Sequence record: NC_024142.2
DNA: 64,000 bases
Direction: 5' to 3' (one strand)
Origin: Escherichia phage Bp4
A model generated the notes under the pieces. That model did no database searches, was not told the DNA's origin, and was given only the letters and a program-made list of their open reading frames with translations. Shown here one piece after another: positions 11,380-61,719 of this stretch (positions are counted from its first letter, which is position 1; the number at the start of each line of letters is the position of its first letter). Made by a program: the position numbers and the translations under genes.

Positions 11380-11709
11380 ATGAATGAATCGGGTGAACTG
11401 CTCCTAGTCAGACTGGAGGAACGATTGAAGACTCTGTTTGAGAACCATACAAGGGAAAGGCAGGACCGTGAGAAACTGGAGGAAACTCTGGTGGAACTAC
11501 GGGATTCAATCAATGACATAGGCAATAGACTGAAAAATGTGGAGGATAGCTTAGCTAAGAATGAACCTACTATTGAAGAGTTCATCACCATTAAGCATAA
11601 AGTTGTTGGTGCTGGAATTTTTGGTAAGTGGGTGTGGGCTGGGGCAGGTGCAATTATTGGTGTATTGGCTGCTGCAAGACGGGAGATATTCGCATGGTTC
11701 GCAGGCTAA
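11380..11709 (+). CDS. membrane protein, holin-like candidate
   Basis: Coiled N-terminal region and a C-terminal hydrophobic segment (GIFGKWVWAGAGAIIGVLAAA); sits just upstream of the endolysin. Confidence 0.4.
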   Translation: MNESGELLLVRLEERLKTLFENHTRERQDREKLEETLVELRDSINDIGNRLKNVEDSLAKNEPTIEEFITIKHKVVGAGIFGKWVWAGAGAIIGVLAAARREIFAWFAG

Positions 11710-11954
11710 AAAGAAAGGTAGAGCTAGTACCTAACTGGAAAAGATGCTGGAAGTGGGCATCCATCCAGATTAGTACGCTCGGGTTAATTATGTTTTCTGC
11801 CATAGATATCATTCAACCAATGCTGACAGGATTACCTCGTCACATCCTGGAAGATATTCCCCATGGCTCCAATATTGTAATCGCACTGTTTGCCTTAAAC
11901 ATCATAGGCAGATTAATACGATTCCGACCAAAGGAAGATTCACATGAAAGCTAA
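11694..11954 (+). CDS. holin-like small membrane protein
   Basis: Two predicted TM segments (ISTLGLIMFSAIDII and IVIALFALNIIGRL); overlaps the endolysin start. Confidence 0.4.
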   Translation: MVRRLKRKVELVPNWKRCWKWASIQISTLGLIMFSAIDIIQPMLTGLPRHILEDIPHGSNIVIALFALNIIGRLIRFRPKEDSHES

Positions 11955-12579
11955 ACAGAAACTTGCTGCGAAAGGTGGTGCAGTGGGAGGGGTTGTCGCT
12001 GCTATCCTGGGGGCAGTGTTTTATATGGAAGGGGGATATGTAAATAATCCTCGTGACCCAGGTGGTGAAACCAATCATGGTATTACCCAAGCTGTAGCTA
12101 AATCTCACAAAGAAGTTCTGGCTACTGAATACGGCTGGGATGGTTCTATGAAGGGTTTATCTAAAGAGATGGCTGCTGAGATATACATTGATGACTACGT
12201 ACTTAAGCCTAACTTCGTAGCCTTCGCTGATATATCTCCTGCTGTAACACATAAGCTGGTAGATGCTGGTGTTAATACGGGTGTAACCCGTCCTGCTAAG
12301 TGGTTACAGTTGTCTCTTAATGAAATGTCACGTAATGGCAAAGACTACCCTAAAATACAGGTTGATGGTAAAGTTGGTACAAGTACTGTTAATGCATATA
12401 AAGCATTACAGAAAAAACGAGGCAAAGTTGCAGCATGTCAGGTAATGATTAAGTTACTCGATGCTAAACAACTGAACCACTACACCTCATTAAACATGCC
12501 AGACTTTACGTATGGTTGGGTAGCTAACCGAATAGGCAATGTGCCACTGGAGGCATGTAATGAAGATGCTAATCTCTAA
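11944..12579 (+). CDS. endolysin, GH108-type N-acetylmuramidase with peptidoglycan-binding region
   Basis: N-terminal EGGYVNNPRDPGGETNHGIT, the hallmark GH108 motif. Confidence 0.8.
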   Translation: MKAKQKLAAKGGAVGGVVAAILGAVFYMEGGYVNNPRDPGGETNHGITQAVAKSHKEVLATEYGWDGSMKGLSKEMAAEIYIDDYVLKPNFVAFADISPAVTHKLVDAGVNTGVTRPAKWLQLSLNEMSRNGKDYPKIQVDGKVGTSTVNAYKALQKKRGKVAACQVMIKLLDAKQLNHYTSLNMPDFTYGWVANRIGNVPLEACNEDANL

Positions 12580-13066
12580 AGGTTGGCCTTATCTTCTGGT
12601 GGTGGTCCTAGGGGCCACCATTTACTTTTGGGGTAATTCCAATGGGCAGTCTACTGTTCAAAAGAAGTGGGATGATCAAAAGGTTGAAGATCAAAAGGCA
12701 ATGCAAAAACTACAGGACAAATACAATGCTCTCCAAAGAAACCATAGTTATGAAGTCGGGTTACTCACTTCCCGGTTGCAGACGGCTGAGAGTAATTACG
12801 CAAGCGAGCTTGCTCGCGTTAGCAGTGATTATGACAGCCGGATGCAACAGTCTGAAAGACGAGCATCGGTATATAAACGTCAAGCCGAAGCCGGAACCTT
12901 TGAGTGCAGAAGTCTTGCAAGCCATGCAGCCAGACTCGACAACAGTCTTGAAGAAGGCAGACGTTTGGTTGAAGAACTCCGGGCAACTGTTAGACTCCGT
13001 GACAGCCAACTAATTGAGTTGGGTAAACAGATTCAGGCTGATCGTAAACTTTTTGAACAGGAATAA
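12560..13066 (+). CDS. i-spanin (Rz-like)
   Basis: N-terminal TM ([14 protein letters not shown]) then coiled-coil; directly after the endolysin. Confidence 0.55.
12750..13013 (+). CDS. o-spanin (Rz1-like) embedded in the i-spanin gene, alternate frame
   Basis: Signal-like [12 protein letters not shown] with Cys lipobox-like site, then Pro-rich KPKPEP; fully nested within Rz. Confidence 0.4.
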   Translation: MKSGYSLPGCRRLRVITQASLLALAVIMTAGCNSLKDEHRYINVKPKPEPLSAEVLQAMQPDSTTVLKKADVWLKNSGQLLDSVTAN

Positions 13067-36693: not shown

Positions 36694-36751
36694 TATTAGC
36701 CTCATAGAGTGGTTTGAATTTGTACTTAAGCATGATTGCGTTCATCAATAC

Positions 36752-36783
36752 TCAAATAAAAAAGTCCCTCCGAAGAGGGACTT
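36752..36783 (-). terminator. intrinsic terminator ending the tRNA-region transcript
   Basis: Minus strand stem GTCCCTC-TTCG-GAGGGAC followed by TTTTTTATTTG. Confidence 0.7.
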
Positions 36784-37009
36784 AGTAGCTTTAACGCAGC
36801 TAACGAGGCTAGGCCAGTTAACTATTACCACCGGTGCTTGTACCAGCAAACAGGATTGATAGTCCGATAATAGTTAACTGTAATTGAGCATTATAGTCTG
36901 CTCATACTCACACCGTTAGGTATGTTTTCAATAATTAGAGTGCCGGACTGTCTCACCGGCATTGTCTTTAGAGTGCAATGCAATCAGGACTATGTTCTCT
37001 ATTAATAAG

Positions 37010-37083
37010 TACCCACTACTGGATTTGAACCAGTGACCTTCCGATTATTAGTCGGTTGCTTTCCCCGTCTAAGCTAAGTGGGC
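37010..37083 (-). tRNA. tRNA, canonical cloverleaf; anticodon loop CUAAUAA, isotype uncertain
   Basis: Hand fold: acceptor GCCCACU/AGUGGGU, D-arm GCUU/AAGC, anticodon stem with one mismatch, T-arm ACUGG-UUCAAAU-CCAGU; no encoded CCA. Confidence 0.5.
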
Positions 37084-37457
37084 ATAAATGAGTGAGTCAT
37101 GCCAGACTTTAACTGGCTCCTTCTTCGCAATCCTTACATACCCCTACATAATTATTGCGTTAAGCTTATATTGTTTAAGTTTAAGTGAAGGCGTTCTTGC
37201 TGACTCATAATAGGGTGGGCGTTTGACGAATGACTAGTTCGTTACTACCCGTTTGCCATAAGTACCTGGCGACTTTGGTTTGAGGCGGGAGTCCGAGTCC
37301 TGTACAGCCTTACCGTTCACACATTGGCAGCGTATCTAGAATAGCACTTCCGGCAACTGGATTTAACTGTTACACCCCAAATCTGGTAGGGGCGTCCAGA
37401 AGTCTCATCTGGTACTTACGCCGTCGTATGGTTACGACTTACCCCCATAATCTTTCT

Positions 37458-37529
37458 AATTCAAAGTAGCACTGCTCCATGTTTGGCCTTTGAACTCCGG
37501 GATGGATTAGTGCAATGCTACTTTGAATT
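37458..37529. repeat. 14-bp perfect inverted repeat with 44-nt spacer
   Basis: AATTCAAAGTAGCA at 37458-37471 and TGCTACTTTGAATT at 37516-37529, abutting a tRNA-like 3' end. Confidence 0.6.
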
Positions 37530-37615
37530 GGTTACCAGTGAGGGATTCGAACCCCCGGTTGGAGTCTATAGCTTACCGCAGCAGCTCTCCAATCTAGCGG
37601 TGTCACACTTAGTCC
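37529..37615 (-). tRNA. tRNA-like element (T-arm, 3' acceptor strand and encoded CCA; no canonical 5' half found by eye)
   Basis: GGGGG-UUCGAAU-CCCUC then ACUGGUA-A-CCA; upstream region does not fold into D or anticodon arms. Confidence 0.3.
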
Positions 37616-37653
37616 AAACTTGAACATATCAAGCTATCTCGTGCAACTGATAA

Positions 37654-37719
37654 TTGGTTCCGGCGTCTGGACTCGAACCAGAACACTTATGCCGTGCACG
37701 ACACTAGTACCTACACCGG
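37654..37719 (-). tRNA. tRNA-like minihelix (7-bp acceptor, T-arm, CCA; about 10 nt too short for a cloverleaf)
   Basis: Acceptor UCCGGUG/CGCCGGA, T-arm UCUGG-UUCGAGU-CCAGA, A-CCA; internal 29 nt have no stems. Confidence 0.3.
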
Positions 37720-37795
37720 AATTAATTGCCAGGGATTCCACCTGGTCCATCTGTTTTTATAGTCACTCAGATATCGTCTGGACTGTAGGCATGGG

Positions 37796-37871
37796 TGGGA
37801 ATCGAACCCACAAACCATTCAGCACTGTAGCCTCACGCTCTACCTATTTGAGCTATCACACACCATTGATT
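37796..37871 (-). tRNA. tRNA-like element (canonical D-arm and T-arm; acceptor and anticodon stems not pairable)
   Basis: D-arm UAGCUCAAAUAGGUAGAGC and T-arm GUGGG-UUCGAUU-CCCAC present. Confidence 0.3.
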
Positions 37872-38156
37872 AACTCCCCGTTTCTAATACACGGACGAGG
37901 ACACTCCATGGTCGTTTGATAATCAGGACGACTCACTCCCGACTGACGCTTGGCTTATTAGGCTGCCATCAGAACAACATCATCGTTTGCATTTATGTTA
38001 TTGGTTCGTTTCTAAAAAACCGCATAATCGCTTACGAAAACTATCAAAGAGTACACTAAGCACAGGTAGCTACCCTGCCGTCTTCTCCACCTACACCGGC
38101 TACAGTGTAAACCTCCGCACGTTAGCTTAATGTACTCATTGATAGGATGTCAGTAG

Positions 38157-51418: not shown

Positions 51419-51436
51419 AGCTTATTTCCTCTTCAA

Positions 51437-51470
51437 AGATAGCCTCACTTTATTATAAGTGAGGCTATTT
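51437..51470. promoter_or_regulatory. 12-14 bp perfect hairpin between rIIB-like and HTH genes
   Basis: ATAGCCTCACTT-TATTAT-AAGTGAGGCTAT. Confidence 0.5.
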
Positions 51471-51480
51471 GAACAGGCTA

Positions 51481-53880: not shown

Positions 53881-55263
53881 TTAGACCAGTATGTCTAGGA
53901 TTTCCCAGTATTCCCTGTCATCCAGTCCTACGTATTCCAGAATACCAATACGGTGTTCAGTAACATATTTCTTGAAGCCTTTACTGGTAATAACTGGCAT
54001 CAGCTCCATAAAGCGAACATCATCAATGTGGATAGCACCTCTCCGTTTGGCCTTGTTAGCTTCGATTTGATTACGGCAGACAACAGTCTCTGCTCTCATC
54101 TCATCAGATAACTCATACCATTTCCACATGGTTCCAATTCGAGCAGTTACTGGGCTACCTGAACCAACCTGATTGGCTAGTACGTAGTACTTAGGTTGCT
54201 CTACTTCAACGAAACCAGACTTATCATGGCGACTTGGGTCTGCAAATTCCTTCTGAATATAAGGCTTTGGTTCCCAATCCCCATTTTTATTCCGTATTTG
54301 GGTAGCACCAAGAACTGCATTCAATGAAATCAGAGAATTAGTTTTACCTCCTGCCTTGGTTTTATTGGCAGCGATTGTCTTAGACCGTTTCTCAGCAGCT
54401 ATCTTAGCTTTCTCTCTACGGAAGTTAGTTGGTTTGTCCCACTCATTATATTGAGTAAGGTCGATTACCCGATAACCCATAGCAGTGAACTTAGCCACAG
54501 CTTCTTCTGCTGCACCCTTCTTAGGTCCAACGACGTGAACAAAAGCTGTACGCTCCAGGTCACCTCGATCGTACTCAGGGAAGTACGAGAAAGAGTCTGC
54601 ACAGTCAGACAAACGTCGGGTAACTACAACGTTTTTGGTAGTGAATATGCCAATACTTTGGTGGGAGTTATTGTATATCCTAAAGTAGTCAGTAAGTTTA
54701 CCTTTTACCAAGTCAACACGGTTACCTTGATTCATTATGTAACCAGACCACTTAATACCAGAGGTTTTCAAAGCAGCCAGCTGAGGTAAGTGCAGATGGC
54801 GATATACTAATTCCGAGAATGGGGAGTATGTACTTTCTTCACGAGTATCCTTAAGAGCACGCATAGCCTTACCATACAGTTTCTTAAGACCTGCGTATTC
54901 AGGACGAGCTAATAATGCCTTATTGGATAAATTACGCCAGTGCTTGATGTAATGCTTACGTTGCTTAGCCCACAAACTAGAGGACATATAGCGTTGAACA
55001 GTTCTGTCTGTAACAGCACCCAGGAATGATGGATACTCCCAGAAGCGAGTAGAGGATTTAGAAGCATATTCTTCAACCTGCTTAATGGCTTCAGGAATCT
55101 TAGCCTTAATCTCTTTCTCCATACGGTCTACTAAATCTACACATAGAGTAGTAATACCATCGTCGGTTAACTTCTGGTTAGACAGCGTTTCTCGACTAGG
55201 AGCAATAGCTAAAGTGTCTGGTGCAGCCTGAACTACTAGATTAGAAGCACCAATAATATTCAT
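53881..55263 (-). CDS. rIIA-like protein, C-terminal segment
   Basis: Frame is open upstream of the ATG and joins the N-terminal segment once one TACAT unit is removed. Confidence 0.5.
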   Translation of the reverse strand: MNIIGASNLVVQAAPDTLAIAPSRETLSNQKLTDDGITTLCVDLVDRMEKEIKAKIPEAIKQVEEYASKSSTRFWEYPSFLGAVTDRTVQRYMSSSLWAKQRKHYIKHWRNLSNKALLARPEYAGLKKLYGKAMRALKDTREESTYSPFSELVYRHLHLPQLAALKTSGIKWSGYIMNQGNRVDLVKGKLTDYFRIYNNSHQSIGIFTTKNVVVTRRLSDCADSFSYFPEYDRGDLERTAFVHVVGPKKGAAEEAVAKFTAMGYRVIDLTQYNEWDKPTNFRREKAKIAAEKRSKTIAANKTKAGGKTNSLISLNAVLGATQIRNKNGDWEPKPYIQKEFADPSRHDKSGFVEVEQPKYYVLANQVGSGSPVTARIGTMWKWYELSDEMRAETVVCRNQIEANKAKRRGAIHIDDVRFMELMPVITSKGFKKYVTEHRIGILEYVGLDDREYWEILDILV

Positions 55264-55280: not shown

Positions 55281-56099
55281 CTACAGCTTCTTCACTAGCT
55301 GGGCTGGATACAATTGGTACATTACATTACCGTAGCGAACGTATATGTTACTGCTACCCATATAGCCTTGATACCATCTATCAGACATATCATATGAACC
55401 AGGTTCAAATGGCATGCCTAGTGTATCCAGTAGAGTGTAGTCGCCTTGTTGAATACTATTACTCTCGTCTGTTCTAATGAGTTTGGGAGTACTTAGCTCA
55501 GCTTTAATTTCACCGTTAAACACAATTGATTTGATGTAATGAATAAAGGTATTTAAATCATGTTTGCCTAACTGGAATTTAACTTCCAGACCAGATTCCT
55601 CAGTAGGAATACCAGTAATAATAGGAACAATACCAGGCTTACCATCATTCTCAATTGCAGCCTTAGCTACGTTATATACCGACATCTTCCCCTGGTTCCA
55701 TGAAGTAACCTGGAAGCTATCTGTATAAGCGAATGGAGATTTACATCCCAGACCAAAGCCACCAGTAGCACTACTGTTGGCTTTCTTAGTAGATGCACCA
55801 TAGACACCATAAATGGAACCAATGAGTTCATCTGGAATACCACTACCGTAATCACGGAAGGTAATAAAGTTGTCTGTATCAATGGTGATACGAATAGGGG
55901 TATCAGTTTTACCTGCCTCAATATGAGCATCCCAGCTGTTACATATAGTCTCACGAACTACTGCCAGAGTAGGATTGTTATACAGGGAAGTACTTAATAC
56001 ATGGAAGAATGCCGGGTCATCAGAGATGCCAAAGGCAATTGTTTCTTTGCCACCCAGTGTCGCTGAGGTAGCTATTTCGTTGGTATCTGCAACTAACAT
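55281..56099 (-). CDS. rIIA-like protein, N-terminal GHKL-type ATPase segment
   Basis: ICNSWDAH, FRDYGSGIPDE and GGFGLGCKS match the histidine-kinase-like ATPase fold found in rIIA. Confidence 0.55.
   Translation of the reverse strand: MLVADTNEIATSATLGGKETIAFGISDDPAFFHVLSTSLYNNPTLAVVRETICNSWDAHIEAGKTDTPIRITIDTDNFITFRDYGSGIPDELIGSIYGVYGASTKKANSSATGGFGLGCKSPFAYTDSFQVTSWNQGKMSVYNVAKAAIENDGKPGIVPIITGIPTEESGLEVKFQLGKHDLNTFIHYIKSIVFNGEIKAELSTPKLIRTDESNSIQQGDYTLLDTLGMPFEPGSYDMSDRWYQGYMGSSNIYVRYGNVMYQLYPAQLVKKL
55318..55327. repeat. 5-bp tandem duplication (TACAT x2) that frameshifts the rIIA-like gene
   Basis: Plus strand TACATTACAT; removing one unit gives a continuous …RYGNVPIVSSPASEEAVGLILNFMNIIGAS… frame. 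Confidence 0.6.
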
Positions 56100-56901: not shown

Positions 56902-57156
56902 TTACTTACGATTTTGTTCTACAAATCGTATCATTTGTTTTTTCACTTCTTCTTGCTCACGAATTGCTTCGTAGTCACGAGCAAAGTAGTAAACACACCA
57001 TAAACCAATCTCGCTTACAAAGAACAGAATACTAGCTCGAATGAACTGCATATCTGTTTCTACGACAAAGGCAACTTTGTATGCGTAGGTCAGTGTTAGT
57101 AGGGTACTAATTAGCATTGCGTATAGAGCTAGTTTTTCATTCAGTAATAGTCTCAC
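56902..57156 (-). CDS. small membrane protein
   Basis: Two hydrophobic segments (LALYAMLISTLLTLTYAY and ILFFVSEIGLWCVYYF). Confidence 0.4.
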   Translation of the reverse strand: MRLLLNEKLALYAMLISTLLTLTYAYKVAFVVETDMQFIRASILFFVSEIGLWCVYYFARDYEAIREQEEVKKQMIRFVEQNRK

Positions 57157-58081
57157 CAGGAATTAATTTACGGAATTGGATAAAGTGGAGCAGGTTACCT
57201 GAGTACAGATTCCCTTCTTTATCCATGGATGTAACACCTTGTTCCCAGGTAACTGGGTTCATGTTATTCACATACTTCTCACCAAGGTTCATAGGCGTAG
57301 CTTGATGTTCCGTTGGGGAAGCATGAATAGGTTGGTTTTCCACTAACTTAGCAAATAAGCCAAGGTCTTCCTCAATAGTAGAGGGACGTCCCTCAAAGTT
57401 GTTATAGGAAGCACGAGCACAGCGTGCAGCACTTACCTTGAGAAGTAGTCCATGCACTTCTGCATCACTTGGTTCATCGCGTGTAATTCGATTACGTTTG
57501 CAGAAATTGTAAGCCCCAACACGGTCAATATGAGCAATATATGGCAAATGCCATTGCCCATACGGTAATGCTCTTGGTGTGCTTTCTTCGTGTGCCTTAC
57601 GCATTGCTTGAGCCAGTTCACGAATCTCCGGTTGTGCATCTTTGTGGTCACGCAGTCCATAGAAATTAGCCCAGCTAGTTGAAGTTACCACTACACGGAT
57701 ATGTGTGAATGGTTCCAGAATACGGTTAACAATTTGCTTATGTACTTGCCCACGACGAAGGATTTCAGCATAGATAGCTGCACTTGTGGCAGCTTGTTGC
57801 CATGCAAATGTAGCGTCTACAATCTCCAAAGGGGTGAGTTCTTCCTCTGCTTGCATACCTTTCTGGTTCTTACCCCAGTGACTTGGCATCACTGGTTCAT
57901 TACGAACCTGTTCGATGAACTTAGCGGTAGGGATAGCACGACTACTTGAAGCATTGCGGTTGAATACACGGTGAGTCATAAACTCACTGTGAATGAATCG
58001 GGGATAAACCAATTCAAAAGTTGTGATACGAGTTCCTGTTTCTGGATGAACGGAATCTGCAATTACTGATGCCTTAATCAT
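57137..58081 (-). CDS. thyX: flavin-dependent thymidylate synthase (ThyX-like)
   Basis: THRVFNRNASSSRA resembles the ThyX RHR…S…R signature; sits in a nucleotide-metabolism cluster. Confidence 0.5.
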   Translation of the reverse strand: MIKASVIADSVHPETGTRITTFELVYPRFIHSEFMTHRVFNRNASSSRAIPTAKFIEQVRNEPVMPSHWGKNQKGMQAEEELTPLEIVDATFAWQQAATSAAIYAEILRRGQVHKQIVNRILEPFTHIRVVVTSTSWANFYGLRDHKDAQPEIRELAQAMRKAHEESTPRALPYGQWHLPYIAHIDRVGAYNFCKRNRITRDEPSDAEVHGLLLKVSAARCARASYNNFEGRPSTIEEDLGLFAKLVENQPIHASPTEHQATPMNLGEKYVNNMNPVTWEQGVTSMDKEGNLYSGNLLHFIQFRKLIPGETITE

Positions 58082-58524
58082 TAGAATGACCTTAGATAGT
58101 TGGTGATACCACTTCTCGTCTCTGTGATTCTCTTAACCTGAACATATACCAGCTTAAACTCACTACGAGGTAGTTCTTGTAATACTGCTACACCTTCAGT
58201 AAGAGCCACAGAACACGCTACAGCGGTTTCTTCTTTAAAGGAGTACAAGTCTTCATACATGAGGGCTTCATACTCTTTACGGAGCATACAGAGAGCATTT
58301 CTTGCTTTATCACTTACTTCTTGTGAACCAGCAGACATAGCTAAGCTGTATATGATAAAGACTTGTTCAAAAACAAAGTCCAGTAATCTATCAGGGTTGT
58401 TAGCCCCCATAAATAATTTTGTTGTGTAGGAACGAGCTTTACGGTTGAGTTCATACTCATCCTCTATGCCTTTATTATACAGAACAGGATTTCGTTTCCT
58501 TTTTCTTAGGAATGGGATACGCAT
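58081..58524 (-). CDS. hypothetical protein
   Basis: 147-aa ORF, start overlaps upstream stop. Confidence 0.45.
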   Translation of the reverse strand: MRIPFLRKRKRNPVLYNKGIEDEYELNRKARSYTTKLFMGANNPDRLLDFVFEQVFIIYSLAMSAGSQEVSDKARNALCMLRKEYEALMYEDLYSFKEETAVACSVALTEGVAVLQELPRSEFKLVYVQVKRITETRSGITNYLRSF

Positions 58525-58904
58525 TAGTATTTACTACCTCTTCTATACCAGGGGTAGTGATGAGTAGTGCTCTTACCTTTGAACACATCCTTGGTATAAG
58601 GATTCTTTTGTATTTGAGCCAAGTAAAGATGCATTTCGTCATAACACGGGCTAAGCCAGAACTTATCTATGATTCGGTCTACCTTAGATTTCAGATGGGG
58701 TTCTGGAGGAATGTATGAATGAAAAGGTCTGCTAGTAACCCATCCTTTCTGAACAAGAGCCTGCATTGTTGTGTAAAGATCTAATTCAATTTCATTATCT
58801 ACTTGATCATGTACAGCTTTACCTAAGGTGAGCATTGCAGTTTGTTCCAGCTTACCGAAGTCCAGTCCTTGTAGGATAGACTTACCATTTCGTCTGTTTG
58901 ACAT
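58524..58904 (-). CDS. hypothetical protein
   Basis: 126-aa ORF. Confidence 0.45.
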   Translation of the reverse strand: MSNRRNGKSILQGLDFGKLEQTAMLTLGKAVHDQVDNEIELDLYTTMQALVQKGWVTSRPFHSYIPPEPHLKSKVDRIIDKFWLSPCYDEMHLYLAQIQKNPYTKDVFKGKSTTHHYPWYRRGSKY

Positions 58905-58916
58905 AAGAGTACCTAT

Positions 58917-58946
58917 AATTAAAAAAGCCCACGGGTTAGGTGGGCT
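58917..58946 (-). terminator. intrinsic terminator
   Basis: Minus strand GCCCAC-CTAACCC-GTGGGC followed by TTTTTTAATT. Confidence 0.55.
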
Positions 58947-59059
58947 TGGGTTAGGAGATGGATAAGCAATGAGCTGGAAGCAACTTCCACAAGCATCACT
59001 ATGTAATGATGCTTAGGTTAGTTACTCTGCTTTACTACCACCGTTGGTTTGTACAACAG

Positions 59060-59263
59060 TTACATTTGTAACCTGGTTCTGCCTTTGTTGGACAGTGACC
59101 AAATCAGTGCTACTACCCAGAATACCAGTGACCAGCCTAATACTATATTAAGCACGCCAATGCCCCACTTAGAGGCATGGCCTCGTGCAAAAGCAATGAT
59201 AGTAGGGATAAGGTATACAGCTAATATAAACAACATAACAAGGATTGCTGCTAAAGATTCCAT
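59060..59263 (-). CDS. superinfection immunity (Imm-like) small membrane protein
   Basis: YLIPTIIAFARGH … VLNIVLGWSLVFWVVALIWS matches the Imm-type two-TM motif; likely start at MESLAAIL. Confidence 0.55.
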   Translation of the reverse strand: MESLAAILVMLFILAVYLIPTIIAFARGHASKWGIGVLNIVLGWSLVFWVVALIWSLSNKGRTRLQM

Positions 59264-59336
59264 GATGGTTCCTATGTGGGGTTGAGTTAGTTTCTTCACA
59301 AATAGCCCAACAATGCTGGGCTATTTAGGCAGCTAC

Positions 59337-59546
59337 TTACTCAGCGTCTTTGCTTGCAGGAGCAAGAGCTTTCTTCAGGTAATTACGTACTGAACGATAG
59401 GTTTCTTTGGTATCCATAGTACTATCATTTACGAATGTGATACGTGCACAATCAGACAGTGGAATTTGTTCCACTCCTACTACATTTGCAGCATTAATGG
59501 TTACACGTACATCTGAGGTTGCATGAGTTACTTGAAATACTGACAT
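59337..59546 (-). CDS. hypothetical small protein
   Basis: 69-aa ORF. Confidence 0.4.
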   Translation of the reverse strand: MSVFQVTHATSDVRVTINAANVVGVEQIPLSDCARITFVNDSTMDTKETYRSVRNYLKKALAPASKDAE

Positions 59547-59555
59547 GTTGTTTCC

Positions 59556-60062
59556 TTATTTACTGCTTCTTGCAGCTACTGGTTTGTTTTCCTGGTTCTG
59601 ATACTTGCCATTGTAATTAGCAGGTTCCTGAACCAGATGAAATAATACTTGAGCTATCCCAGAACCAGCCGGGATATGCAGTTTCTTACGACCGTGATAG
59701 ACAAGTTCGAGGGTAAGATACCCTTTCCATCCTGGTTCTATTACGGTATTGAACACAGATAATGCACGTCTTGCCCAGGTAGACTTATCGTGAACGATGG
59801 CTACACAGGAAGGAGACATGTTGAACTTCTCAATTGCTGAAGCCAATGTGAACTTACCGAGATGGCGTGATACTTGATTTCCATCAACGACTTTCACCAT
59901 TGGAATCAACCCAAATAAGCGATAGAAGGTAATATCTTGTTTGATACGAATATCATAACCAGCTTCACCCAATCCATAGCTTACACCATGCTCGGATACC
60001 TTACGGTCTGGGACATCCAGCAACTGAGATGAACGATAAAGAGAATTACCATTAACAACCAT
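59556..60062 (-). CDS. dcd: dCTP deaminase (Dcd/dUTPase superfamily)
   Basis: GYDIRI and STWARRALSVFNTVIEPGWKGYLTLELVYHG … AQVLF parallel E. coli Dcd motifs. Confidence 0.7.
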   Translation of the reverse strand: MVVNGNSLYRSSQLLDVPDRKVSEHGVSYGLGEAGYDIRIKQDITFYRLFGLIPMVKVVDGNQVSRHLGKFTLASAIEKFNMSPSCVAIVHDKSTWARRALSVFNTVIEPGWKGYLTLELVYHGRKKLHIPAGSGIAQVLFHLVQEPANYNGKYQNQENKPVAARSSK

Positions 60063-60580
60063 TATTTCATTCCTTTAGGGATATGAACTACCTCCCCAAA
60101 AGGTACGGTAGCATTAGGATTATTCAGAACACACCAGATGATAGGAATATCAAATGGTAATTCTTTCATTGGGCGAACATACATATCGGAGAATATGATT
60201 GCAGCGGTTGGCTTATTCTTAATAATCCAATCACGTACTGGTTCAAGGCTTGTACCACCACGACCAGTAATCTTAATCTCTTCAAAAGTATCTTCTTCAG
60301 TGATGTCTATTTCTTCCTGGATAATATCGTCGAAGGTAATTAGTGACATCTTCTTAGGATTGAACTGACTTTTAACGTAGGCGACTTCTGAGTTAAAACG
60401 CAGAGAGTCAGCACTACTAATAGAACCAGATACATCCTCAAAGTAGGCTAAGTGACGTAGACGTCCTTCATCATCTTCTAAGGAAGGTAGATAGATGTCA
60501 GTGTAACGACGGTTGGGTCTGGCCCACGTATAATGTGTGTCATCAATGTCGGTAAAAAGTTCATCAGAACTTCCTGCCAT
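60062..60580 (-). CDS. vWA-domain protein, C-terminal segment
   Basis: MIDAS-like DVSGSIS…TGRGGTS; upstream part of the gene lies in other frames. Confidence 0.55.
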   Translation of the reverse strand: MAGSSDELFTDIDDTHYTWARPNRRYTDIYLPSLEDDEGRLRHLAYFEDVSGSISSADSLRFNSEVAYVKSQFNPKKMSLITFDDIIQEEIDITEEDTFEEIKITGRGGTSLEPVRDWIIKNKPTAAIIFSDMYVRPMKELPFDIPIIWCVLNNPNATVPFGEVVHIPKGMK

Positions 60581-60675
60581 GGAACCACTGGTTTAAGGAA
60601 TTGGGTAATAACCTCTTCCATACGACCAGCACCTTTACCAGGCATCTGTCCACCAGCCATTTTCTGGCTCTGCAT
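60478..60675 (-). CDS. vWA-domain protein, middle segment (frame-shifted)
   Basis: Frame open upstream: HFGQSQGAVVNNVVRAMQSQKMAGGQMPGKGAGRMEEVITQF. Confidence 0.45.
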   Translation of the reverse strand: MQSQKMAGGQMPGKGAGRMEEVITQFLKPVVPWQEVLMNFLPTLMTHIIRGPDPTVVTLTSIYLP

Positions 60676-61234
60676 TGCACGTACTACGTTGTTGACAACA
60701 GCACCCTGGGACTGCCCGAAGTGGGGATTTCATGTCGCCAGCAAGACCTGCTCCAGCACCCCCTGACGGCTTCTGCCTTTTCTGAGGGTTCTTCATCAGG
60801 TCATCGTAGATGTCTTCTTCGACCCATCCTTTATATTGAGGGTCTTTGCAAATGCCTTCATCAATGCCAGTGAACTTGTAACCATCTTCTTCTAACTGAA
60901 GGTTAATGAAGTGGTCACAAGCCTGGTTCCAGACTTCTGGGTCACGGCTTCCACGTCGGATGTCGTGTAGATATGCCACATGCCATAATTCATGCATAAG
61001 CACTGTTTCTCTTACATCTGGACACATCCAGATAAAGAAATCTGGGTTGAAATGGAGTTCTATCCCATCAGTACATGCAGTGGGACAATCCTCACGTTTC
61101 CATGAGAATTTAAGACTACACAGTAATGAACCAAAGAAGGCTGCGCTGCGACCTAAAAAAGCCTGCGCTTGGATTCTATCGTACTCCCTCATTAGCTGCT
61201 CATCTGTGAGACTATGCGTAGGTATACTGTTCAT
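60635..61234 (-). CDS. vWA-domain protein, N-terminal metallopeptidase-like segment
   Basis: HELWHVAYLH motif; C-terminal ~30 residues Cys-rich out-of-frame; removing one C from the CCCC run (plus GGGG 60723-60726) restores the frame. Confidence 0.55.
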   Translation of the reverse strand: MNSIPTHSLTDEQLMREYDRIQAQAFLGRSAAFFGSLLCSLKFSWKREDCPTACTDGIELHFNPDFFIWMCPDVRETVLMHELWHVAYLHDIRRGSRDPEVWNQACDHFINLQLEEDGYKFTGIDEGICKDPQYKGWVEEDIYDDLMKNPQKRQKPSGGAGAGLAGDMKSPLRAVPGCCCQQRSTCNAEPENGWWTDAW

Positions 61235-61566: not shown

Positions 61567-61719
61567 TTTGTAACTTTTGCCCTTATAGTTGAAGCATAAA
61601 TAACCATCGCTATTTAGATTACCTACCTTTTTCCAGCAATGCCTCTGGAGGCTACTGTAACTTTCCAGAATAGCTCCCCATTTATGTAAACGAGTATGTC
61701 ATTCCAGTTCATGTTGTGA

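What the first reader, a model, noticed from the sequence alone, without database searches (positions are those of the whole stretch)
59060..59263. Imm-like superinfection immunity protein in the middle-gene region
The small two-TM protein (…YLIPTIIAFARGH…LGWSLVFWVVALIWS…) matches the motif of T4 Imm-type superinfection immunity proteins, which block DNA entry of secondary phages. It is flanked by terminators and small ORFs, forming a candidate exclusion module.
Basis: partly seen in the sequence, partly recalled or inferred. Interest (0 to 1): 0.5.

Follow-up and report, generated by a model that had tools for sequence, protein, structure and literature searches.

The report
T4 Imm-family membrane protein, already annotated
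The small two-helix membrane protein is a genuine relative of phage T4's Imm superinfection-exclusion protein, but public records of this phage group (G7C/Bp4-like, N4-related coliphages) already name it so, its exclusion activity has never been tested, and this copy has a frameshifted tail that is probably a sequencing error.

Summary
The ORF is real: minus strand, 59263..59060, 67 aa, with an AGGA ribosome-binding site. It matches Pfam PF14373 (Imm_superinfect) over the whole model at 62 bits against a cutoff of 27.9. It matches PHROG 1039 at 2.7e-28 and aligns with T4 Imm itself (30% identity, E=3e-10).

The window is phage Bp4 (Gamaleyavirus, N4-like). The exact 67-aa protein is RefSeq YP_009113230.1, "immunity to superinfection". 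G7C gp27.1 has carried the same label in its record.

- **Truncated tail:** a 1-nt loss in a G-run at 59082 replaces the conserved 19-26-residue polar tail with RTRLQM. All relatives have 80-86 aa. Nine similar homopolymer losses nearby split rIIA and gp25, so this is probably sequencing error.
- **Single-gene insertion:** the gene sits between core genes gp27 and gp28 and is absent from N4. It is bracketed by conserved hairpins and a canonical terminator. The neighbours are not an exclusion module.
- **Function is inferred only:** PF14373 is a very large family (13,218 cluster representatives). It also occurs in bacterial housekeeping contexts and fused to unrelated domains.

The family assignment is supported, the gene is ordinary and already known, and the exclusion function is plausible but untested.

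The parts
59060..59263 (-). imm-like CDS as it reads in the window: 67 aa plus a TAA stop. The PF14373 domain covers residues 16-57.
   Evidence: ORF. Pfam 62.4 bits. PHROG 1039 at 2.7e-28. Identical to YP_009113230.1, 'immunity to superinfection [Escherichia phage Bp4]'.
59022..59059 (-). Out-of-frame remnant of the conserved C-terminal tail (...QNQVTNVTVVQTNGGSKAE*). It comes back into frame if one G is restored at 59082-59083.
   Evidence: The PD38 record CDS AXY81314.1 is 80 aa and ends here. All eight relatives keep the longer frame. The ancestral stop GCAGAGTAA is at 59030..59022.
59082..59083 (.). Site of the 1-nt homopolymer loss that frameshifts codon 62 onward. It reads CC on the + strand where relatives have three bases (CCC in the near-identical PD38 record).
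   Evidence: It is one of 10 window-shorter homopolymer indels in 10 kb.
59270..59273 (-). Ribosome-binding site AGGA, 6 nt upstream of the ATG.
   Evidence: Conserved in all relatives; Moo19 has AGGAG.
59299..59327 (-). Upstream hairpin between the gp27 stop and imm: a 13-bp stem with a 3-nt loop. It is a terminator-like or unit-boundary element. The U-run lies partly inside the stem, so it is a weak terminator by consensus.
   Evidence: dG -17.4 kcal/mol, z -3.5. The AU to UA compensatory pair is in Moo19. The G7C record annotates the equivalent as stem_loop. The terminator scan did not flag it.
58991..59014 (-). 3'-UTR hairpin 1, AAGCATCA-loop-TGATGCTT.
   Evidence: Three double-sided compensatory pairs in St11Ph5 and IME11. 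The 148-nt 3' region folds with z -5.8.
58976..58988 (-). 3'-UTR hairpin 2, GGAAG-TTG-CTTCC. The stem is 5-7 bp with a 3-nt loop whose third base varies. An equivalent GGAAATTCC is present in the N4 gp27-gp28 spacer.
58921..58947 (-). Canonical intrinsic terminator, AAGCCCAC-7nt-GTGGGCTT followed by TTTT.
   Evidence: Terminator scan. Its stem is invariant across relatives. The PhAPEC5 record annotates the equivalent as a terminator. The N4 spacer has the same element.

Best explanation
This is the imm gene of a Gamaleyavirus, an N4-related podovirus. The source is phage Bp4.

**What it encodes.** A small helical-hairpin protein of the T4 Imm / PF14373 family, predicted to sit in the inner membrane. 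In the lineage it is 80-86 aa. It has two transmembrane helices joined by a short basic loop (RGHASK). By the positive-inside rule that loop faces the cytoplasm, which places the N-terminus and the polar Q/N/S/T/V-rich C-terminal tail in the periplasm.

**How it is arranged.** It is a single-gene accessory insertion between the conserved pre-replicative genes gp27 and gp28. It has its own ribosome-binding site, an upstream boundary hairpin and a downstream terminator.

**Most likely function.** By homology with T4 Imm, the protein is made before replication and inserts into the inner membrane of the infected cell. There it prevents the genome of later-adsorbing phages from crossing that membrane, which protects the ongoing infection from superinfection and from envelope damage caused by secondary adsorption.

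**Shown.** The ORF, its family membership, the two-helix hairpin (prediction only; membrane insertion not tested), purifying selection, the insertion anatomy and the flanking structures.

**Inferred.** Membrane topology, expression class, and the exclusion activity and its targets.

**The window copy.** It ends in a frameshifted tail (RTRLQM). This is most probably a homopolymer sequencing error in the source record.
For: **Family membership**
- PF14373 is matched over the full model at 61.8-62.4 bits against a cutoff of 27.9.
- PHROG 1039 'immunity to superinfection' is matched at 2.7e-28.
- T4 Imm belongs to the same Pfam family (58.2 bits) and aligns at 30% identity over 61 aa, E=3e-10. It hits the window only at this locus by tblastn, E=3.9e-7.
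- T4-like phage Imm proteins are hit directly at up to 44% identity and E=2e-9. One of them lies at the syntenic 43-imm.1-imm-42 position.

**What T4 imm does**
- The T4 RefSeq note says imm leaves superinfecting DNA in the periplasm.
- Imm together with Spackle confers superinfection exclusion (PMC7677548).
- Imm is a plasma-membrane protein involved in exclusion and in resistance to secondary-adsorption damage (PMC6832632).

**Architecture and conservation**
- Two uncharged stretches with a basic loop, the same layout as T4 Imm residues 3-32 and 37-65.
- AlphaFold2 hairpin with pLDDT 83.
- dN/dS of 0.06-0.19.
- The gene is present in every Gamaleyavirus record found and in Moovirus. It is absent from N4, whose gp27-gp28 spacer keeps the same flanking elements.

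**Lysis and annotation**
- A dedicated holin, endolysin and spanin cassette lies elsewhere, at 11380-13066 on the + strand.
- The exact protein is already named 'immunity to superinfection' in RefSeq.

**Frameshift as artefact**
- Ten window-shorter homopolymer indels occur in 10 kb. They also split rIIA and gp25.
- The 67-aa form is on record from one contig only, whereas hundreds of copies are 80 or 86 aa.
Against: - No exclusion phenotype has been reported for this protein or for any Imm homologue outside the T-even phages in the searchable literature.
- Identity to T4 Imm is only 30%.
- PF14373 is a very large and functionally heterogeneous family, with 13,218 cluster representatives at E<=1e-3.
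- Family members sit in non-prophage housekeeping contexts: between gyrB and plsY in Helicobacter cholecystus, and between a LysR regulator and satP/dnaK in an Orbaceae genome.
- The domain is fused to TPM/LemA, SHOCT, Mrr-type nuclease and zinc-ribbon domains. It may therefore be a generic membrane hairpin.
- T4's partner Spackle has no homologue in the window.
- N4-like phages inject a virion RNA polymerase together with the DNA. A mechanism tuned to T-even tails need not transfer to them.
- PADLOC and NCBIfam have no model that matches.
- Expression timing and topology were not measured.
Confidence: 0.55

Rival explanations
1. The protein is a PF14373 membrane hairpin with a job other than blocking DNA entry. 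It might modulate a host inner-membrane protein or envelope integrity, or tune lysis timing in a holin- or antiholin-like way. On this reading the 'superinfection immunity' name is only inherited from T4.
For: The family is very large. It occurs in bacterial housekeeping neighbourhoods and in fusions with unrelated domains. A review notes that T4 Imm 'reportedly molecularly resembles a holin' and mainly delays collapse of lysis inhibition and resists secondary traumatization. rIIA and rIIB homologues lie about 3-8 kb further along in the same minus-strand gene block. In Mangalitsa the homologue sits about 0.5 kb upstream of the spanin genes.
Against: The only characterised member, T4 Imm, does exclude superinfecting phage. 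The closest non-Schitoviridae relatives are phage genes, including syntenic imm genes of T4-like phages. The phage has its own holin, endolysin and spanin cassette in the late region. G7C is reported not to show lysis inhibition.
Confidence: 0.25
2. The truncation is real. In Bp4 the imm gene carries a genuine frameshift that removes the periplasmic tail, giving a tail-less and possibly crippled or altered-specificity allele.
For: The 67-aa sequence is what the deposited Bp4 record encodes. The transmembrane core, which is the Pfam domain, is intact. The tail is the most variable part of the protein and comes in two exchangeable alleles.
Against: The change is a 1-nt loss in a homopolymer run. 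It is one of ten such losses in 10 kb, all in the same direction, and others break rIIA and gp25, which are intact in relatives. The near-identical phage PD38 has the full 80-aa gene. Hundreds of other copies on record keep a full-length 80- or 86-aa tail.
Confidence: 0.1
3. The protein excludes competitors rather than kin. It targets heterologous phages that share the gut niche, such as T-even-like myoviruses or small siphoviruses that carry related imm genes, and not Gamaleyavirus itself.
For: Close homologues are shared horizontally among unrelated phage families: Chaseviridae Mangalitsa at 62% identity, Acinetobacter myoviruses at 54% and Klebsiella T4-like phages at 44%. N4, which has the same virion and entry design, does without the gene.
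Against: To my knowledge T4 Imm acts on T-even-type phages, that is on kin; the primary papers could not be read. Nothing in the sequence identifies a target.
Confidence: 0.1

Closest known systems
Bacteriophage T4 Imm (NP_049660.1, 83 aa)
   Same: It belongs to the same Pfam family, PF14373, at 58.2 versus 62 bits, both over the full model. The two align at 30% identity with E=3e-10. Size is similar, the N-terminus starts ME in both, and both have two long uncharged segments with a short basic loop and a polar, beta-prone C-terminal tail. Both are pre-replicative genes of virulent coliphages lying among nucleotide-metabolism genes.
   Different: The host phage here is an N4-like podovirus that injects a virion RNA polymerase, not a contractile-tail myovirus. 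There is no Spackle partner. T4's first hydrophobic segment is six residues longer. The exclusion activity is demonstrated only for T4.
G7C gp27.1 and other Gamaleyavirus or Moovirus 'immunity to superinfection' proteins
   Same: These are orthologues in the same gp27-imm-gp28/gp29 position with the same flanking hairpins and terminator. Identity is 93-98% within Gamaleyavirus and 70% in Moo19 over residues 1-60. The exact window protein is the RefSeq entry for phage Bp4.
   Different: The window copy has a frameshifted 6-residue tail instead of the 19-26-residue tail. None of these proteins has been tested experimentally, as far as the searchable literature shows.
Imm of T4-like phages such as Jiaodavirus (JD18, vB_KpnM-JEC), JS98 and JS10
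   Same: The Klebsiella Jiaodavirus proteins (JD18, vB_KpnM-JEC) are 44% identical to the window protein with E=2e-9; the JS10 hit is weaker (E=9e-5). The vB_KpnM-JEC gene lies at the syntenic T4 imm locus. This bridges the window protein to T4 Imm.
   Different: The genomic context is that of a myovirus, between DNA polymerase and dCMP hydroxymethylase.
Bacterial and plasmid PF14373 proteins and fusions
   Same: They carry the same 42-residue two-helix hairpin domain.
   Different: They are chromosomal and not in prophages, for example between gyrB and plsY, sometimes in tandem. Some are fused to TPM/LemA, SHOCT, Mrr_cat or zinc-ribbon domains. Their function is unknown and probably not phage exclusion.
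Other phage-encoded exclusion proteins: T4 Spackle, T5 Llp, P22 SieA
   Same: The biological role is analogous: protection of an infected or lysogenic cell from secondary infection at the envelope.
   Different: They are unrelated proteins with different mechanisms. Spackle is a periplasmic inhibitor of the gp5 lysozyme. Llp is a receptor-blocking lipoprotein. No sequence relationship was found here (for Sp).

Membership tests
T4 Imm / Pfam PF14373 (Imm_superinfect) | Profile HMM match above the curated gathering score, covering the whole domain | tested here: met
   61.8-62.4 bits against a gathering score of 27.9. Model positions 1-42 of 42 match residues 16-57. PHROG 1039 is matched at 2.7e-28.
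T4 Imm / Pfam PF14373 (Imm_superinfect) | Direct similarity to the founding, experimentally characterised member (T4 Imm) | tested here: met
   BLASTP gives 30% identity over 61 aa with E=3e-10. T4 Imm scores 58.2 bits on PF14373. A bridging homologue at 44% identity lies at the syntenic imm locus of a T4-like phage.
T4 Imm / Pfam PF14373 (Imm_superinfect) | A protein of about 60-90 aa with two hydrophobic helices separated by a short basic loop | tested here: met
   Uncharged stretches at 3-26 and 33-59 with the loop R27-G-H-A-S-K32. T4 Imm has stretches 3-32 and 37-65 with the loop R33-G-S-K36. The AlphaFold2 hairpin has helices at 2-26 and 32-65 and pLDDT 83.
T4 Imm / Pfam PF14373 (Imm_superinfect) | A polar C-terminal tail after the second helix | tested here: not met
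   In the window the tail is replaced by RTRLQM because of a 1-nt deletion at 59082. All relatives have a tail of 14-26 residues. The Pfam domain does not include the tail, so family membership is unaffected.
T4 Imm / Pfam PF14373 (Imm_superinfect) | Inner-membrane location and defined topology | not testable with these tools
   Only a positive-inside inference is available: loop in the cytoplasm, both termini in the periplasm. The T4 topology paper could not be retrieved.
T4 Imm / Pfam PF14373 (Imm_superinfect) | Early or pre-replicative expression | not tested
   Inferred from position among N4 gp25-gp30 homologues, on the strand and in the block of N4 middle genes. No transcript data were available.
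T4 Imm / Pfam PF14373 (Imm_superinfect) | Blocks genome entry of secondarily adsorbing phage (exclusion phenotype) | not testable with these tools
   No experimental report was found for any homologue outside the T-even phages.
T4 two-component exclusion system (Imm + Spackle) | Presence of a Spackle (gp61.3) homologue | tested here: not met
   tblastn of T4 Sp against the 64-kb window gives no hit at E<=1. About 8.6 kb of the genome lies outside the window and was not searched.
   The neighbours are homologues of N4 gp27 and gp28. N4 has them without imm. G7C has imm without gp28. Neither neighbour has a hydrophobic segment in its translation.
Holin | Small two-TM protein encoded in the lysis cassette next to the endolysin | tested here: not met
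   The holin (phrog_1356), endolysin (phrog_315) and Rz-like spanin lie at 11380-13066 on the + strand, about 46 kb away. No holin PHROG was among the three PHROG families matched at E<=0.01.
Moron-type accessory insertion | A single gene inserted between conserved genes, with its own terminator and promoter | tested here: inconclusive
   The insertion between gp27 and gp28 relative to N4, and the terminator, are met. An own promoter is not demonstrated. No sigma-70-like site lies upstream, and I could not retrieve the N4 RNAPII promoter consensus.

The most novel reading that the evidence does not exclude
The transmembrane hairpin may be only a generic anchor, and the periplasmic Q/N/S/T/V-rich C-terminal tail may be the specificity determinant that engages the ejection machinery of incoming phages.

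The tail comes in two exchangeable alleles plus a chimera. One allele is shared with Moovirus and a Chaseviridae phage.

In an N4-like phage this would mean Imm blocks the passage of both the virion RNA polymerase and the DNA across the inner membrane. That would give a genetic handle on a still-unknown entry step. The Bp4 allele would then be a natural tail-less variant.
Probability: 0.12. Interest if true: 0.5.

Novelty: already known. Interest (0 to 1): 0.15.

Why it matters
It matters little beyond correct annotation. The gene is already labelled "immunity to superinfection" in the RefSeq records of this phage and its relatives.

Three points have practical value:
- **The label is homology-only.** It rests on a very broad two-helix membrane-hairpin family, so it should not be read as demonstrated exclusion.
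- **The source sequence has errors.** It carries homopolymer errors that truncate this protein and split rIIA and gp25.
- **It is a candidate worth testing.** No superinfection-exclusion system has been characterised for N4-like phages (PMC12642591), and this gene is testable in Gamaleyavirus. It cannot explain N4 itself, which lacks it.

Tried and rejected
- **Rfam** on 58500-59700 at E<=1 gave only a chance snoRNA hit at 18.7 bits against a gathering score of 49. The flanking hairpins belong to no curated RNA family.
- **PADLOC and NCBIfam** gave no hit for imm or its three neighbours.
- **Foldseek** of the AlphaFold2 model against the PDB found nothing below E=6. The fold is a plain helical hairpin and is uninformative.
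- **E. coli complete genomes**, searched by blastn in distant mode with the locus, gave no match. The gene is not borrowed from a resident E. coli prophage at the DNA level.
- **Literature:** 'PF14373' returned 0 papers. Searches for Imm homologues in N4-like or Gamaleyavirus phages returned annotation-level mentions only. The primary T4 Imm papers (PMC250924, PMC237878) are not held, so T4 topology and host-range details are not cited from them. One further search failed on a term that was too short.
- **Hairpin 2 as a virion-RNAP promoter.** I considered whether hairpin 2 (58988..58976; 5-7 bp stem, 3-nt loop) could be an N4-type virion-RNAP promoter. I rejected this for three reasons. The loop centre is T in all relatives, whereas, to my knowledge, N4 promoters need a purine there. 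Such promoters are confined to the genome's left end. This site also lies about 30 nt upstream of a strong terminator.
- **The 79-aa GTG-start ORF** (59299) was rejected. The GTG lies in the hairpin's 3' arm, and all relatives and the family start at the conserved ME.
- **E. coli YmgF.** A remembered possible link between this family and YmgF was not tested and is not claimed.
- **Middle promoter.** I could not establish the N4 RNAPII middle-promoter consensus from the held review. Whether imm has its own promoter is left open.

Full report
**1. What is there**

On the minus strand an ORF runs from the ATG at 59263 to a TAA at 59062-59060. It encodes 67 aa: MESLAAILVMLFILAVYLIPTIIAFARGHASKWGIGVLNIVLGWSLVFWVVALIWSLSNKGRTRLQM.

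An AGGA lies 6 nt upstream of the ATG, at 59273..59270. The mechanical ORF list also offers a 79-aa GTG start at 59299. That GTG lies in the 3' arm of a hairpin. The seven relatives whose feature tables were read start at the ATG, and the N-terminal ME is invariant in the subfamily and shared with T4 Imm.

The protein has two uncharged stretches, 3-26 and 33-59, separated by R27-G-H-A-S-K32. AlphaFold2, run with a 15-sequence alignment, gives a helical hairpin with helices at 2-26 (kinked at P20) and 32-65 and mean pLDDT 83.

Against eight relatives, dN/dS over codons 1-61 is 0.06-0.19. This is a real gene under selection.

**2. Where the window comes from**

A 2.2-kb stretch of the window around the gene (58000-60200) is about 100% identical to Escherichia phage PD38 and 89-95% identical to the other listed G7C-like phages. 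PD38 is MH669274, classified as Schitoviridae, Enquatrovirinae, Gamaleyavirus Bp4.

The exact 67-aa protein is AJB43753.1 / YP_009113230.1, "immunity to superinfection [Escherichia phage Bp4]", named "Membrane immunity protein" in UniRef. It comes from a 72,583-nt contig.

The G7C record calls the orthologue gp27.1, "similar to Imm of phage JS98". Dozens of related records use "superinfection immunity protein" or "putative membrane immunity protein".

**3. Family membership**

- Pfam PF14373 (Imm_superinfect) is matched over the entire 42-position model at 61.8-62.4 bits, against a gathering score of 27.9.
- PHROG 1039, "immunity to superinfection", is matched at 2.7e-28.
- I fetched T4 imm from NC_000866. 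It scores 58.2 bits on the same Pfam model and aligns with the phage protein at 30% identity over 61 residues, E=3e-10.
- T4 Imm used as a tblastn query hits the window only here, at E=3.9e-7.
- tblastn against 50,697 phage records finds 935 records. They include annotated Imm genes of T4-like phages (JS10, SP18, VR7, JD18) at up to 44% identity and E=2e-9.
- In the Jiaodavirus vB_KpnM-JEC the homologue lies in the order regA - 43 - imm.1-like - imm - 42 - beta-gt - uvsX - 40 - 41. This is the T4 imm locus.

The chain from this protein to T4 Imm is therefore solid at the sequence level.

**4. The 3' end is frameshifted in this copy**

Compared with PD38, the window lacks one base of a three-base run at 59082-59083. 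All eight relatives I aligned keep the frame. They continue after ...SLSNKG into a polar tail of 19-26 residues and stop at the position equivalent to window 59022.

The tail comes in two alleles:
- QNQVTNVTVVQTNGGSKAE, giving an 80-aa protein.
- QSQTTIVNVGSGNQYNVSQTSQSDK, giving an 86-aa protein.

St11Ph5 is a chimera of the two. The window instead reads RTRLQM* and stops at 59060.

In the 10 kb compared there are ten indel events. All lie in homopolymer runs, and in every case the window is the shorter sequence. Others split rIIA into 55281..56099 and 53881..55263, which match PHROG 2979 positions 1-249 and 266-733. They also split gp25 into 60635..61234 and 60062..60580, which match PHROG 1314 positions 7-164 and 230-392.

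The 67-aa form is on record from a single contig. The 80- and 86-aa forms are seen in hundreds of copies. I conclude the truncation is most probably a sequencing artefact of the Bp4 record. A real tail-less allele cannot be excluded without resequencing. The Pfam domain, residues 16-57, is untouched.

**5. Anatomy of the locus**

The gene order is:
- gp25 (VWA/metallopeptidase);
- gp26 (dCTP deaminase, 59556..60062);
- gp27-like (59337..59546);
- imm;
- gp28-like (58524..58904);
- gp29-like (58081..58524);
- ThyX (57137..58081).

This order is supported.

N4 has gp27 and gp28 separated by only 113 bp, with no imm there or anywhere else in its genome (tblastn E>1). That N4 spacer contains a hairpin followed by ATTTATGGAAA. 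It then has GGAAATTCC, CATTGCTTA, and the terminator GCCCAC-5 nt-GTGGGCTTTTTTAATTA.

In the window the same elements bracket imm:
- an upstream hairpin at 59327..59299;
- after the gene, hairpin 1 at 59014..58991;
- hairpin 2 (GGAAG-TTG-CTTCC) at 58988..58976;
- CATTGCTTA at 58971..58963;
- the terminator at 58947..58921.

The upstream hairpin folds at -17.4 kcal/mol with z -3.5. It shows an AU to UA compensatory pair in Moo19. Hairpin 1 shows three double-sided compensatory pairs in St11Ph5 and IME11. The terminator stem is invariant.

The claim "flanked by terminators" is essentially right for the downstream side. The scan flags that element, and the PhAPEC5 record annotates its equivalent as a terminator. 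On the upstream side there is a conserved hairpin whose U-run lies partly inside the stem, and the scan did not flag it.

A very similar element is found at about 51470: AAATAGCC...GGCTATCTTTGAAGAGG. This suggests a recurrent unit-boundary signal in this block.

**6. The "exclusion module" idea**

The two flanking small ORFs are soluble proteins of unknown function, PHROGs 7594 and 12812. They are homologous to N4 gp27 and gp28. N4 has both without imm, and G7C has imm without gp28. They are not co-inherited with imm, and nothing links them to the envelope.

No T4 Spackle homologue is present in the window.

imm is a single-gene accessory insertion. It is present in Gamaleyavirus and Moovirus. 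Its closest homologues outside these N4-like genera are in phages of unrelated families: Chaseviridae Mangalitsa at 62% identity and Acinetobacter myoviruses at 54%.

**7. How far function can be transferred**

T4 Imm is described as a plasma-membrane protein. Together with Spackle it excludes secondarily adsorbing phage: the superinfecting DNA stays in the periplasm. It also limits damage from secondary adsorption (annotation note, PMC7677548, PMC6832632).

I found no experimental test of any homologue outside the T-even phages. A recent N4 preprint states that no superinfection-exclusion system is characterised for N4 and that G7C does not show lysis inhibition (PMC12642591).

The family is very large. 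A profile built from this subfamily finds 13,218 cluster representatives at E<=1e-3 among 1.84 billion, and 1,296 at E<=1e-10.

Family members occur in bacterial chromosomes in plainly non-prophage settings:
- two tandem copies between gyrB and plsY/folB in Helicobacter cholecystus;
- one copy between a LysR regulator and satP/dnaK in an Orbaceae genome.

They also occur on plasmids. The domain is found fused to TPM/LemA, SHOCT, Mrr-type nuclease and zinc-ribbon domains. The domain therefore behaves as a general two-helix membrane module. Membership alone does not prove exclusion activity.

I put the Imm-type exclusion mechanism at about 0.55, a different membrane role at about 0.25, and smaller weights on the variants listed as rivals. 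A holin role is unlikely because a complete holin, endolysin and spanin cassette lies at 11380-13066.

**8. Topology (inference)**

The only strongly basic segment is the inter-helix loop (R27, H29, K32). The N-terminus carries E2. By the positive-inside rule the loop is cytoplasmic, and both termini, including the variable polar tail, are periplasmic.

The segment SLSNKG after helix 2 is invariant in the subfamily, and the tail is always present but variable. These features are compatible with a periplasmic interaction surface, but this is speculation.

**9. Verdict**

- The family assignment is supported.
- The module idea is not supported.
- The function remains an inference from homology.
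- The gene is already annotated as such in this very phage, so novelty is nil and interest is low.
- The useful by-products are the frameshift and sequencing-error diagnosis, the insertion anatomy relative to N4, and the caution about the breadth of PF14373.

Noticed in passing
window 55316, 56872, 57133, 59082, 60554, 60718, 60723, 61628, 62217, 63996: There are ten indel events relative to the near-identical PD38 record. All lie in homopolymer runs, and the window is always the shorter sequence. They split rIIA (55281..56099 plus 53881..55263) and gp25 (60635..61234 plus 60062..60580), and they truncate imm. This is the signature of homopolymer sequencing error in the source genome.
   Followed up: partly
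window 58921-59030, minus strand: The roughly 100-nt 3' UTR of imm is more conserved than the coding tail. It holds two hairpins, hp1 with three double-sided compensatory pairs and hp2 with a 3-nt loop. It also holds an invariant CATTGCTTATCC box and the terminator. Parts of it (GGAAATTCC, CATTGCTTA and the terminator) are also in the N4 gp27-gp28 spacer. No Rfam family matches.
   Followed up: partly
window 59299-59327 and about 51420-51475 (also weaker at about 61600-61620), minus strand: A recurrent element, AAATAGCC-hairpin-GGCTAT(T/C)TTG(T)GAAGA, lies upstream of genes in the pre-replicative block. It may be a terminator/promoter boundary signal for the phage RNA polymerase II. The N4 spacer has an analogous hairpin followed by ATTTATGGAAA.
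   Followed up: no
L018 3974-4376 (Helicobacter cholecystus); L024 3950-4156 (Orbaceae): PF14373 genes occur in housekeeping neighbourhoods. Two tandem copies lie between gyrB and plsY/folB in Helicobacter cholecystus. One copy lies between a LysR regulator and satP/dnaK in an Orbaceae genome. These are not prophage contexts.
   Followed up: partly
proteins P0141, P0142, P0241, P0204, P0138 (one search hits): The PF14373 hairpin is found fused to LemA plus TPM phosphatase, SHOCT, an Mrr-type restriction endonuclease domain and zinc ribbons. The membrane-anchored Mrr nuclease fusion is a curious possible DNA-entry defence.
   Followed up: no
L003-L010, imm C-terminal tails; L006 (Mangalitsa): Two exchangeable C-terminal tail alleles exist within Gamaleyavirus, and St11Ph5 is a chimera of them. 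The 86-aa-type tail is shared with Moovirus Moo19, and the Chaseviridae phage Mangalitsa carries a close variant of it (84-aa protein). This suggests horizontal exchange of the gene or of its tail.
   Followed up: partly
window 58524-58904 (gp28-like slot); L003 1761-1885; L004 1937-2080: The slot between imm and gp29 is variable. The window, IME11, EC1-UPM, Bas96 and PhAPEC5 have a 126-128-aa gp28-like gene there. G7C has nothing, and St11Ph5 has only a 47-aa ORF.
   Followed up: no
window 36706-38135, minus strand: A 1.4-kb stretch has no ORF of 45 aa or more on the minus strand and is predicted to fold into extensive secondary structure, so it may hold tRNA genes; none was identified. It was not scanned with ARAGORN.
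   Followed up: no
hit H5 (OP312987.1, phage vB_EcoS_Uz-1): The Uz-1 record has the same length (72,583 nt) as the Bp4 contig. It matches the query at identical coordinates (58000-60200) although it is only 93% identical. This could mean a reference-guided assembly or a shared start point.
   Followed up: no
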